Below, in pieces: positions 1,875 to 31,942 of a stretch of DNA of 32,641 bases. The stretch spans positions 1 through 32,641 of the forward strand of contig JWZX01002042.1 of the NCBI GenBank assembly GCA_001275005.1. Direction: 5' to 3'. Source of the stretch: Chrysochromulina tobinii (Eukaryota). The position numbers and the translations under genes were made by a program. Position 1 is the stretch's first letter, and every line of letters starts with the position of its first letter. The notes beneath the pieces were generated by a model that saw only the letters and a list, made by a program, of their open reading frames with translations, had not been told where the DNA came from and made no database searches.

Positions 1875-4800
1875 ATGGTCGATGCTGCGCTCGTGTACCG
1901 TCGCGGCGTTGAAGCGTTCAACTCCAACGACTTGGTGTCAGCACGTGCCCACTTTGAGGCGGCCACCTTGGCCGCACCAATCGCTTGGGAACCTCTCCTT
2001 TCACTCGCGCACGTACACGTTCGTGCTGGCGAGGTCTTTGCGGCAGCAGAGAGCATGGACGCTGCTGTGGCCCGCTTGTCGGCGTCGGCGGCGGAAAGAA
2101 CGACGATGGACGCCTTTTGCTCCGCGGCTCGGCCGCTGCTACCAGTTCTGCCACAAGGACGTGCAGTGGACATTTGCAATTCGCCAAGTGCGCAGTATGA
2201 CTTTCCCGGGCCGCCATCCACGCCAGTGCCATTGGAAGAATCCCGAGCAGCAGCAGCAGCTCCGCTCCACCTCACAGATCACGCATGCAGCTCGAGCGCT
2301 GGCCAGCTGGAAGCACGCCATTTGGTCTGCGCTGCCGAGTCGTCGGCCACTCCATTTGACACCGAGGCTGCTGCCTTGCTGAGCGCGTCCACCTTTGGGG
2401 AGGGCGTGTGCGTGTGCGCGTCCCTGCATGAGGGCACGAATGCTGATTTGGAGGATTGGCTCGCACAGTACCGCTGCTCCACGCGAGGAGGCAGCAGCCG
2501 ACGCCCCCATTCTGGCGCCCATGTCGTGCTCTACGACGATCGGCGTTTGTCGGGTGTCGAATGGGAAGCTGCCTCGTGGTCGCTAGAACCGTGGGTCGAA
2601 TCGGGCTGGCTCACCTGGAAGCACACAGCACCGGAGCCACACGATAAGCGAGCGCAAGGTTCGTCACAACACGAGCACTTGCATGCGACGTCGCCCTCCG
2701 CCTCGGATGCCCGACGGCCTCCCGGGCAGGCGCGTCGCGTCGCGTGCCATGAGCAGCTTGCACGCCATCCGGGGTGCAACTGGATGGCGATGATCGAGGC
2801 ACCCTATGAGAGTCTCGTTCACGGGAGCTCGTCGGAGATCCCGCAGCGAGATCACGGGAGCTCGTCGGAGATCCCGCAGCGAGATCACGGGAGCTCGTCG
2901 GAGATCCCGCAGCGAGATCACGGGAGCTCGTCGGAGCATAGAGGGGCTTGCGAGCAGTCGCGAGCGCCGCCGGTATCGACGACTTCGATCCCATCGCAAG
3001 ACGTTGAGCCCGACGCGGGCGCGTCGGCGAGCGCGTCGCCGAGCGCCAGGGGTGAATGCCCTGCTGCCGCCGGTGAAACCAGCCGCTCACGCCTACCTGG
3101 CGATGGCACAATGCGAGTGGGCGTCGTGCGCTTCGGCCTAGGCGGCTCGCGCCCTTCTCGCGGTTCACAGCTGGAGGTTGAGCTGCCGGTGCGCCCGTTG
3201 CCGGTGGTTTCGGATCGTCGAGAAGCCACGTGGGGGCGCTGCATCCGGACGGACGGAACGCTGTGCGCATCGCTCGACGAGACGGCGGTACTGATCCGCC
3301 TCACGGGCACGCACGAGTCTACCGCAGGGGCTGATGACAATCACAATCGGACGCACGAGTCTACCGCTGGGGCTGATGACCATCACAATCGGACGCACGA
3401 GTCTACCGCTGGGGCTGATGACAATCACAATCGGACACTCGATCCGTATGGCACTCTTCATCATCGGACGAAGGACGAAACGTCTCGTCGACGTGGGGCC
3501 AATAGTGCGGTGCCACCGCTGCTCTGGCCACCGACGGCGCTCGGTGCGCTCAGGGTTCACCGATACACTGGCCGCGCTTGGGGTGATCACAGCAGTGGGA
3601 GGGGCGATGGCCGTAGAACGGGGCATGTTGGACATGGGGGCAAAGATGGGCGGGGAGGGCCGAGCGGCGCAACTTCACACCGCGCAGCTTCACACTCAGC
3701 TTCACAGCGCCTCTTCGGCCTCGTCGTCGATCCGTTCGGAAGGGAAGCTTTCGAGGCTTGCTTGGCAACGGGCACGCCCAGCTATGATCGCGACGACGCG
3801 CGCAGCGGCAGCGACGACGCGCTCGCTTTTGGCTCTTGGGCAGCAGCCGCCTCGGAGGCTGTGACGCACGGTGACGGCCTCGCCATGTTTCGAGGCGCGT
3901 TGAGCCGCGCCGAAGCTTCTTTGCTACGTGAAGACCTTTTGAGCGCGATCCCGCCCGCAAAGCGCACGACGCGTGTCTTCGCCAACCACATGTGCCAGGT
4001 GCGATCTCCCTTGATCTCCCTTGGTTGCCCTTGATTGCCCCCGATGGCCTTCTGAGCGCTCGTTGGCTCCGTGGCCGAACAGTGCGTCGAAGGAGAGCCG
4101 CGCTCATCGGGCCACGACCCGAGCTGCGAGCCACTCTCTCCCGTGCTGCTGCAGCTCGCAGCTCACCCGCACGTGCTCCGGCTCGTGCGCTCGCTCTTGG
4201 GCGAAGACTCGAGGCTTCACAACGCCGGGCTCTCGCTCGTCACGCCGCCTCCCGAAGCAAAAGGCGAGACGCCCGGGACGACGCCCGAGCGATGGCTCGC
4301 TGCGCCCGGGACGACGCCCGAGCGATGGCTCGCTGCGCCCGGGACGACGCCCGAGCGATGGCTCGCTGCGCCCGGTACGACGCTCGCTGCGCACCTGCCC
4401 CATCAGGACCAGCCCGTGAACAGCGCGCGTGTGTGGAGAGGGCGCGCACCGCCACCCACGCACCCGCTCTCGCTGCAGGCGCTCTGGATGCTGGATGACT
4501 TCACTTGGGACAATGGGGCCTTCTACACGCTTCCTCGCACGCAACGCCGAACCGAGCACATCGACTCGTGGGCTACGGAGGCCGCGTCTCGCGCCAACGC
4601 GTCCTCCGCGGCGGCTATGCGCGCCGCCGCGGCCCGCGGGCTCCTACCCACGCGTCTCGTCACCGGGCGCGCTGGCGACGTGGCCTTTGCGCTCGGCTCC
4701 CTCTGGCATGCCCCCTCCACATCCCTCCCGGGTCAACGTCCCCGGCTTGCGCTCCTCTTTGAGTACGCACCCTCGTTCGTGCAGCCACGGGACCGGTACT

Positions 4801-29851: not shown

Positions 29852-31942
29852 CTACACGGCCATGTCCATCTTGATCTTGCCATACGGGTTGTACCCCTCG
29901 ATGGTCAGGTCGCCAAAGGTGCACCCCTCCACCGAGTCGACTTTCGGGTCGATGCGCAGTGTGGGGAAAGCGCGCGGCGAGCGCTCGAGCTGCTCCTTGA
30001 GCGCATCCACGTGGTTCAAGTACACGTGCGCGTCGCCGATCGTGTGCACGAACGTGCCGCGCTTGAGGCCGGTCAGGTGCGCGAAGAGGCACGTGAGCAG
30101 CGCGTACGAGGCGATGTTGAACGGCACGCCCAGCCCAAGGTCGGCCGATCGCTGGTACAATTGCCACGAGAGCGCTCGATTAGGGAGGCAATTAGGGGTC
30201 CTCAGAGGTCATCAAGAGGCAATCATGGCTCATCAGCGTACCTGATGGAGCCACTCGATTAGGGAGGCAATTAGGGGTCCTCACAGGTCATCAAGAGGCA
30301 ATCATGGCTCATCAGTGTACCTGGTACATTTGGCACGAGAGCGCTCGATTAGGGAGGCAATTAGGGGTCCTCACAGGTCATCAAGAGGCAATCATGGCTC
30401 ATCAGTGTACCTGGTACATTTGGCACGAGAGCGTGCCATCGGCCACGTAGAACTGTGCGAACATGTGGCATGGCGGCAGTGCCATCTTGCTTAGGTCGGC
30501 GGGGTTCCAAGCAGTCATGATGATGCGCCGGTCATGGGGCTTATTCTTGAGCTTGTCGAGCACCTCGGCAACCTGGTCGAGCAATGCATCACGTCAGTGG
30601 CAATCAAGGGAACTCAAAACATCCATCAAGGGTCCTCGGAGGTGGTCAAGGGGACACTGAATGGCAATCCATCGCAATCACCTGGTCGACTCCCTGACCC
30701 TTGTAGTCGGCATGCATGTCCGTATAGGTCGCACCGAAATGGCGCCACTGCCAGCCATACACGGGGCCCAAGTCGCCCACCTGCGCGTCGAGGGGAAGCA
30801 GCGGTCATCTTGATCATCCGAGGTCATCTTGATCATCCGAGGTCATCAAAGGTCATCCGAGGTCATCAAAGGTCATCCGAGGTCATCAAGTTGCTCACCT
30901 CACGATCGGTCAGCCCGATCGAATCGAGGTACTCGCGCGAGCTGTTGCCGTCCCAGATGCCGATGCCCTTATCTTGCAGCTTCTTGGCCGAGGTCTCGCC
31001 GTTCAGGAACCACAGCAGCTCCTCGGCCACCCCGCGCCAAAACACACGCTTCGTCGTGAGCAGTGGGAAAGTCGTCGACAGGTCGAAGCGCATCTGCACC
31101 CCAAATTTGGAAAGAGTGCCCACGCCGGTCCTGTCCACCTTCCGCACACCGTTCTCGATCACGTCGCGAACGAGATCGAGATACTGCATCTCCTCCGGGT
31201 TCACCGCCACCGGCGGTGGAACCGGCGCCGCCGAGGCCGAGGCCGAGGCCGCCGCCGCTGCCGCCGCCGCCGCGTTGACGAATTCAACGAACTCGTACCG
31301 CAGGCCATTCTCGACTCGGGCGGCGGAGCGAGCACCCTCGACGTACGCACCGCTCGCCAAGGGCGGGAAGAACGTATCGCACTCGAAACCAGAGAGCCGC
31401 GGCTTCTTAGCAGTGGGGGGTGCAGGGGACGCACCGTCAGTCTGTACCGCAGTGTTCTCGGTGCCGGCGGCCGCAGCCTCTTCGACCTGCTCGATCTCGG
31501 TCAGGTGGATCCTGGCGCACGCGGGCATCGCGATCGCCTCCTCATACACCGAGGCGCCGCCGATGACAAAAACGTTCTCGATGGTTGCGCCCGCCTCCGT
31601 GTCCTCACCGAGCAGCTCGAGTGCCTGCGGCAGGCTGCTGGCGCAGAGGACGCCCTTGGGCAGCTCGAGCGAGTCCGTGTCGGCGGTGCGACTGAGCACG
31701 ACGTTCACGCGGTCATCGAGCGGCCGGAACTTGGTCGGGATCGACTGCCACGTCTTGCGCCCCATGATGACCGCGTTGCGTTTCGTCGGGTCCCGCGTCG
31801 AGCGCGTGAGCTGCTTGAAGTAGGCCATGTCGGCGCGCAGGCGCCAGGGCAGCGCGCCTGCCTGGCCGATGCCTCGTGTCTGCTTGCACGTCGCCACAAC
31901 CACCGCGAAGGACCGCTGCTTCCGATCGGCCGCGAGCACCAT
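29852..31942 (-). CDS. DHFR-TS: Bifunctional dihydrofolate reductase-thymidylate synthase, 4 exons
   Basis: Exons 31942-30899, 30780-30682, 30572-30411 and 30151-29852, all phase 0. [102 protein letters not shown]. Confidence 0.97.
30152..30410 (-). other. DHFR-TS intron (259 nt) made of three stacked GT..AG units (90+79+90 nt), with a 23-nt exon-end duplication
   Basis: CTGGTACATTTGGCACGAGAGCG at 30411-30433 (exon), 30321-30343 (identical) and 30152-30174 (21/23). Confidence 0.9.
30573..30681 (-). other. DHFR-TS intron (109 nt) with a 10-nt flanking direct repeat
   Basis: ACCTGGTCGA at 30571-30580 and 30680-30689. Confidence 0.88.
30781..30898 (-). other. DHFR-TS intron (118 nt) of GATGACCTCG/GATGACCTTT decamers, with a 14-nt imperfect direct repeat
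   Basis: CAAGTTGCTCACCT (30887-30900) versus CAAGTCGCCCACCT (30769-30782). Confidence 0.88.

What the first reader, a model, noticed from the sequence alone, without database searches (positions are those of the whole stretch)
3999..30898. Introns bounded by long, variable target-site-like duplications: a candidate intron-generating system
Seen in the sequence: 8 of 12 predicted introns, in four unrelated genes, have direct repeats spanning or abutting the splice junction. The lengths are 24 nt (5203/5358), 15 nt at 13/15 (17369/17657), 23 nt (18015/18105), 14 nt (18300/18372), 9 nt (20923/21004), 23 nt (30152/30411), 10 nt (30571/30680) and 14 nt at 12/14 (30769/30887). The duplicated segment supplies one or both splice dinucleotides, so splicing restores the original coding sequence exactly. 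Established: transposon-derived introners of algae typically show short, fixed TSDs, often with TIRs, and repeat-flanked new introns have been attributed to break repair. Inference: the variable 9-24 nt duplications, the absence of visible TIRs and the shared repeat filler point to insertion at staggered nicks by templated or reiterative synthesis (TPRT-like or repair-polymerase-like). The mix of perfect and decayed repeats suggests ongoing activity.
Basis: partly seen in the sequence, partly recalled or inferred. Interest (0 to 1): 0.88.

Follow-up and report, generated by a model that had tools for sequence, protein, structure and literature searches.

The report
New introns bracketed by long duplications
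In a freshwater alga, many introns are bracketed by a 9-24-base copy of the gene's own sequence and several are missing from the same genes in relatives, which likely means that new introns are being made by copying pieces of a shared repeat into staggered breaks in genes.

Summary
The window is a Chrysochromulina tobinii contig. All 8 repeats are at the stated places; 7 of 12 candidate introns have an in-register junction repeat of 9-24 nt (cross-pair null 6 of 240); the eighth (18015/18105) lies inside its intron. RNA contigs join 7 introns exactly. Related haptophytes lack the three DHFR-TS and three DYRK introns, so these are lineage gains. One TS repeat segregates with 0, 1 or 2 mismatches. 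Inserts have no TIRs, share a strictly sense decamer filler (84:0) and partly shared ends; the repeat gives the donor or the acceptor, the insert the other signal. At least 11 other loci show the same build in metagenome ORFs (biased sample). Best reading: intron-family sequence copied into staggered cuts; repair synthesis versus retroposition is open; no enzyme found. Against generality: 0 of 4 filler introns in the next gene have a clear long repeat. Closest known: Daphnia break-repair introns (4-12 bp) and introners; the published survey lists 0 introner families for this genome. The scan noted one such intron in this genome before (e1-2577349).

The parts
5205..5359 (+). AKR intron, GT-AG, two 77-78 nt units; starts with a 22-nt copy of the next exon (repeat 5203/5358); insert ends in family terminus CCTCCCTCATCAG
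   Evidence: frame join, AKR domain in next exon; no RNA joint seen
17369..17656 (-). DYRK intron 3; own GTGAGT donor, 24 decamers, ends in 13/15 copy of upstream exon that gives the AG
   Evidence: RNA pieces stop at both repeat copies, joint not listed
17903..18113 (-). DYRK intron 2; 23-nt exon/donor segment duplicated 90 nt inside, with a 13-nt array built from the donor's own sequence between the copies
   Evidence: RNA joint in 3 of 3 RNA runs
18313..18384 (-). DYRK intron 1, 72 nt; starts with 13-nt copy of next exon; no decamer filler
   Evidence: RNA joint in 2 of 3 RNA runs
20927..21007 (+). CbbY-like HAD intron 2, GC-AG, both dinucleotides within a 9-nt repeat
   Evidence: RNA joint in 3 of 3 RNA runs
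30152..30410 (-). DHFR-TS intron 3; three units; ends in 23-nt copy of upstream exon (0-2 mismatches among alleles)
   Evidence: RNA joint in 2 of 2 RNA runs
30573..30681 (-). DHFR-TS intron 2; 10-nt repeat TCGACCAGGT
   Evidence: RNA joint; absent in L004, L009
30781..30898 (-). DHFR-TS intron 1; 12/14 repeat, decamer array, 3' end shared (16/17) with an intron of the neighbouring transporter gene
   Evidence: RNA joint
3999..4082 (+). filler-like intron without long repeat (score 3)
   Evidence: frame only
20235..20320 (+). CbbY intron 1, no repeat, no filler
   Evidence: RNA joint
28662..28790 (-). candidate intron, no long repeat; one RNA contig reads through unspliced

Best explanation
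These are real, lineage-specific introns, each bracketed by a 9-24-nt copy of the host exon, likely made when a staggered cut in a gene was filled in on both sides and a piece of a dispersed intron-repeat family was copied into the gap. Shown: splicing, gain, repeats, shared sense-only filler. Inferred: insertions survive only if splicing removes insert plus one copy exactly, i.e. the copy starts with GT/GC while the insert brings branch point, pyrimidine tract and AG (AKR, DYRK1, TS1, CbbY2), or the copy ends in AG while the insert brings the donor (TS3, DYRK3, TS2). Inferred: the filler is copied by repair-type synthesis with primer realignment, from other introns in trans or from local sequence (DYRK2), and the repeat+insert unit then amplifies by slippage or unequal exchange.
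For: 7 of 12 repeats against 6 of 240 null pairs. Gains: intronless full-length calls on 5.9-11.7 kb contigs in five related TS lineages, incl. the nearest genomic relative P0004 (the ENA/JGI calls are not splice-aware, as read-through products show); L004/L009 lack TS1, TS2; DYRK relatives P0175/P0301/P0302 on 7-16 kb contigs span all three sites. Youth: TS3 copy has 0, 1 or 2 mismatches. Shared filler and ends between unrelated genes and in contig L016. Variable lengths, mosaic inserts, one insert of local origin, one with no filler, and many 33-64 nt tandem duplications elsewhere in the window fit repair synthesis. Same build at 11 of 37 other ORF loci.
Against: No strain without one of these introns was found; TS1 is present in all 13 TS read-through products. 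Relatives are distant (nearest about 77% amino-acid identity), so an intron could be older than its repeat. 0 of 4 filler introns of the next gene have an in-register long repeat (one has a tentative 18/23 internal copy, null 3 of 210); L016 has only 5 nt. L004/L009 have an intron 7 nt from TS3, with a 5-nt repeat in L004, so sliding is not excluded there. The 84:0 strand bias and shared 3' ends fit an RNA template at least as well. No enzyme tested.
Confidence: 0.5

Rival explanations
1. Retroposition: a LINE-type endonuclease/reverse transcriptase copies an intron-derived or SINE-like RNA ending in CCTCCCTCATCAG into nicks; 5'-truncated copies take the donor from the duplication, full-length copies with a spoiled acceptor take the AG.
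For: Repeat lengths centre near the 14-16 bp of L1 TSDs (PMC2912911 passages); shared 3' terminus in AKR and L016 and the LMREA/DEGG peptide in many ORFs; filler only in sense; TS3's own end reads TCGAG instead of TCAG.
Against: No single family: at least two 3' ends; DYRK1, CbbY2, TS2, DYRK3 ends differ; DYRK2 insert is local; no RT gene in the window and the genome was not available; sense bias is also expected from selection for branch points.
Confidence: 0.27
2. The introns came first (short-TSD introners or older gains); the repeats were added later by local duplication or by aborted conversion with spliced cDNA, which pastes the neighbouring exon end into one end of the intron.
For: Repeats are one-sided: the junction lies within 2 nt of a repeat end in 6 of 7 (exact matches); DYRK2, AKR and TS3 show duplications at existing junctions; many filler introns have only 3-5 nt; Chrysochromulina MAG introners have 4-bp TSDs without TIR.
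Against: One-sidedness is also expected from selection for splice signals; no consistent old donor or acceptor behind the copies (by eye); perfect repeats coincide with lineage-specific positions.
Confidence: 0.18
3. Ordinary old introns with microsatellite expansions and chance or artefactual repeats.
For: Low-complexity interiors; published pipelines filter such families as possible microsatellites.
Against: Null test, absence in relatives, independent assemblies.
Confidence: 0.05

Closest known systems
Daphnia pulex neointrons from staggered double-strand-break repair (PMC4202315, abstract and passages)
   Same: New introns with a copy of the adjacent exon end at the opposite end; later secondary staggered insertions; near-site parallel gains.
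   Different: There 33 such repeats of 4-12 bp; here 9-24 nt, and the inserts share a dispersed sense-only decamer family and termini.
Introners/ILEs of Symbiodinium, Polarella and marine Chrysochromulina MAGs (10.1101/2020.10.14.339549 parts 1-2 of 4; 10.1101/2022.06.06.494994 passages; PMC12130899 passages and supplement rows)
   Same: One splice site carried, the other co-opted from the duplication; related sequences in unrelated genes.
   Different: Those have fixed 3-8 nt TSDs per family, often TIRs, near-identical copies; here lengths vary, no TIR, mosaic low-complexity bodies. C. tobinii is listed with 0 families.
L1-type target-primed reverse transcription (PMC2912911 passages)
   Same: Variable duplications around 15 bp, possible 5' truncation, common 3' end.
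   Different: No poly(A), no element or target motif identified here.
Tandem genomic duplication model of intron gain (named in PMC3296678 passages)
   Same: AG|GT inside a duplicated segment gives both splice sites.
   Different: Here foreign filler lies between the copies.

Membership tests
Introner (DNA-transposon type) | family-specific fixed short TSD | tested here: not met
   9, 10, 14, 14-19, 15, 23, 24 nt
Introner (DNA-transposon type) | terminal inverted repeats | tested here: not met
   local scores 3-6 in 16 introns; no null run for this score
Introner (broad sense) | similar sequence in introns of unrelated genes reaching both ends | tested here: inconclusive
   shared bodies and single ends, never end to end
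Introner (broad sense) | positions absent from relatives | tested here: met
   6 of 6 TS and DYRK positions; AKR and CbbY not tested
Break-repair neointrons (Daphnia type) | exon-end direct repeat of variable length | tested here: met
   7 of 12
Break-repair neointrons (Daphnia type) | presence/absence polymorphism within the species | tested here: inconclusive
   none seen in L001, L005, L007, L008, X8; only length and sequence variants
Non-LTR retroposon (SINE-like) | partner LINE with endonuclease and reverse transcriptase | not testable with these tools
   no genome held
Non-LTR retroposon (SINE-like) | common 3' end with 5' truncation | tested here: inconclusive
   AKR=L016 13-nt end, TS1~M1 16/17; others differ

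The most novel reading that the evidence does not exclude
C. tobinii has a self-feeding intron generator: its own repeat-filled introns serve as RNA or DNA templates that are written, whole or truncated, into staggered cuts with 9-24-nt duplications, making hundreds to thousands of new introns that introner screens miss because they discard low-complexity families.
Probability: 0.35. Interest if true: 0.85.

Novelty: new variant of a known kind. Interest (0 to 1): 0.7.

Why it matters
How new spliceosomal introns arise without a classical transposon is an open question. Here a cultured, haploid alga with one intron per gene on average (PMC4580454 passages) gained three introns within 750 bases of one conserved gene, with unusually long footprints that record the cut geometry. 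That makes repair versus retroposition directly testable, and suggests that surveys undercount intron-generating sequences.

Tried and rejected
Whole-genome census: no genome held. Filler and TS patterns in viral contigs: 0 hits in 5 scans; family end in prokaryote genomes 0; decamer triple gave 6 loci, 2 look like algal contaminants. DYRK1 insert as member of the repeat at 10047-10174: score 26 versus shuffles up to 32, rejected. E-to-V change at TS1 as a product of the insertion: REVGDLG also occurs in 3 other rows of the tree, one intronless, so rejected as specific evidence. The 169-nt TS3 alleles (L005, L007) may be collapsed assemblies; L005's perfect copy could be chimeric, though the C. 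parva model P0152 and one-mismatch products P0145/P0155 agree with variation. L002, L006, L010 lack introns but may be transcripts and were not counted. Summed contig depth over the filler (over 1000 versus about 15) is no copy number and was not used. Rfam: 0. Atlas gave no answer. Two papers not held; the recalled report of 10-11 bp intronic repeats in Emiliania could not be checked (one search gave 0). Script machine lost, so searches were read by eye.

Full report
Source. The DHFR-TS product matches a Chrysochromulina tobinii protein on a contig of this exact length. No genome was held, so all counts come from the window, 17 fetched loci, run contigs and protein records.

Observation. The eight repeats are there. 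Splicing TS, DYRK and the PhyH/AKR gene at GT/GC-AG sites restores open frames. RNA contigs join TS1-3 in 2 of 2 RNA runs from two studies and DYRK1, DYRK2, CbbY1, CbbY2 in 2-3 of 3 runs. DYRK3 has RNA pieces ending at both repeat copies; AKR and the 3999 intron rest on frame alone. In-register repeats score 8 or more in 7 of 10 introns (7 of 12 with two further repeat-free candidates), against 2 of 274 and 6 of 240 cross-paired junctions and 0 of 8 introns in relatives. The window was chosen for this trait, so the share is inflated: four introns of the next gene (in L008, frame-predicted) score 3-5. The 18015/18105 repeat is internal to its intron.

Gain. One metagenome scan gave 11 loci. L004 and L009 are genomic relatives with four introns of their own; they lack TS1 and TS2, and have an intron 7 nt upstream of TS3. 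Unspliced gene calls give full-length DHFR-TS on contigs of 11.7, 6.9, 5.9, 6.7 and 8.8-10.6 kb in five lineages; that these calls ignore splicing is inferred from products that run into the intron. The tree puts P0004 and P0026 next to the window's protein (100/99); P0026 is probably a transcript and uninformative. DYRK relatives on 7-16 kb contigs cross all three sites. AKR and CbbY orthologues were not examined.

Age. TS1 is in all 13 TS read-through products, with small sequence differences. The last TS3 copy has 2 mismatches in window, L001, L008, L007, none in L005 and one inferred from P0145/P0155. Unit number varies at AKR (P0294 has an extra unit) and perhaps TS3. No intron-free allele was seen.

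Anatomy. Four inserts keep a pyrimidine-rich 3' end while the repeat gives GT or GC; three begin at a donor while the repeat ends in AG. The core TGAKKRC occurs 84 times in sense and never in antisense in 16 introns (2571 nt), against 27 scattered hits in the other 31 kb; three repeat-flanked or repeat-free introns score 0 on this core, DYRK1 and CbbY2 among them. AKR and TS3 share 23 of 26 aligned columns, TS1 and a transporter intron 16 of 17 nt near the 3' end, AKR and a contaminant-looking contig (L016) the 13-nt terminus. No TIRs. The DYRK2 insert is a 13-nt array starting with the donor's own letters, which points to primer realignment.

Breadth. The antisense frame of the AKR intron found 40 predicted proteins; 37 were read by eye. 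Eleven show a non-filler peptide of 5-16 residues repeated around filler at other loci (for example P0309, P0313, P0318, P0327, P0330), as do P0295/P0296; two are AKR alleles. The query had this build, only same-frame copies are visible, organisms are unnamed, and splicing is not shown, so this is a biased lead that the build is widespread, often with amplified units.

Mechanism. I favour fill-in of staggered cuts with templated filler (0.5) over LINE-driven retroposition (0.27) and later duplication at existing introns (0.18). Fill-in of staggered breaks is known to give small tandem duplications (PMC8355091, abstract only). The first two agree on one-step gain with a target duplication.

Literature. 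Ten searches found no description of long-repeat introns in haptophytes; subscription papers and the C. parva and Emiliania genome papers were not seen. Daphnia neointrons carry 4-12 bp repeats. Dinoflagellate introners have fixed 3-8 nt TSDs. The 2025 survey lists C. tobinii with 0 families (files 13-14 not searched) and haptophyte TSD calls of 2-5 nt, with one Emiliania family noted for 10-bp terminal direct repeats; the 2022 pipeline removed low-complexity families (its supplement was cut when stored).

Verdict. Real, non-random, lineage-specific intron gain with an unusual footprint; a new variant between break-repair introns and introners; enzyme unknown. Interest 0.7.

Noticed in passing
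window 6187: Two RNA runs and one DNA run have an extra C here, so the window's early AKR stop is probably an assembly error.
   Followed up: no
window 1875-6290 (+): One long frame joins an unknown N-terminal part, a PhyH domain and an aldo-keto reductase; fusion not confirmed by RNA.
   Followed up: partly
window 2819-2936, 3309-3436, 4270-4383, 13260-13382, 29689-29809: Near-perfect 33-64 nt tandem duplications, most in coding DNA; a lake contig skips 87 nt at 4294-4382.
   Followed up: no
L004:1625-1729, L009:690-766: Intron 7 nt from TS3, starting GTACC like its next exon in L004: near-site parallel gain or sliding.
   Followed up: partly
P0011, P0027, L004, L009: Other lineages have their own DHFR-TS introns at different positions while several have none: high turnover in this clade.
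   Followed up: partly
L008 about 13330-13740 (-): 409-nt filler stretch with an internal 18/23 copy of the next exon start; may be two introns around a small exon.
   Followed up: partly
window 10047-10190: A second repeated motif containing TGCATGC, duplicated at 84 nt, with loose contig ends suggesting copies elsewhere.
   Followed up: partly
L014, L016: Filler-bearing contigs inside bacterial MAGs, probably algal contamination; L013 has a short array between bacterial genes.
   Followed up: partly
P0003: The public DHFR-TS model lacks 65 residues present in the open frame, which an RNA contig covers only in two pieces.
   Followed up: no
P0309-P0346: Protein databases hold many spurious ORFs that are antisense translations of this filler ([10 protein letters not shown] repeats).
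   Followed up: partly
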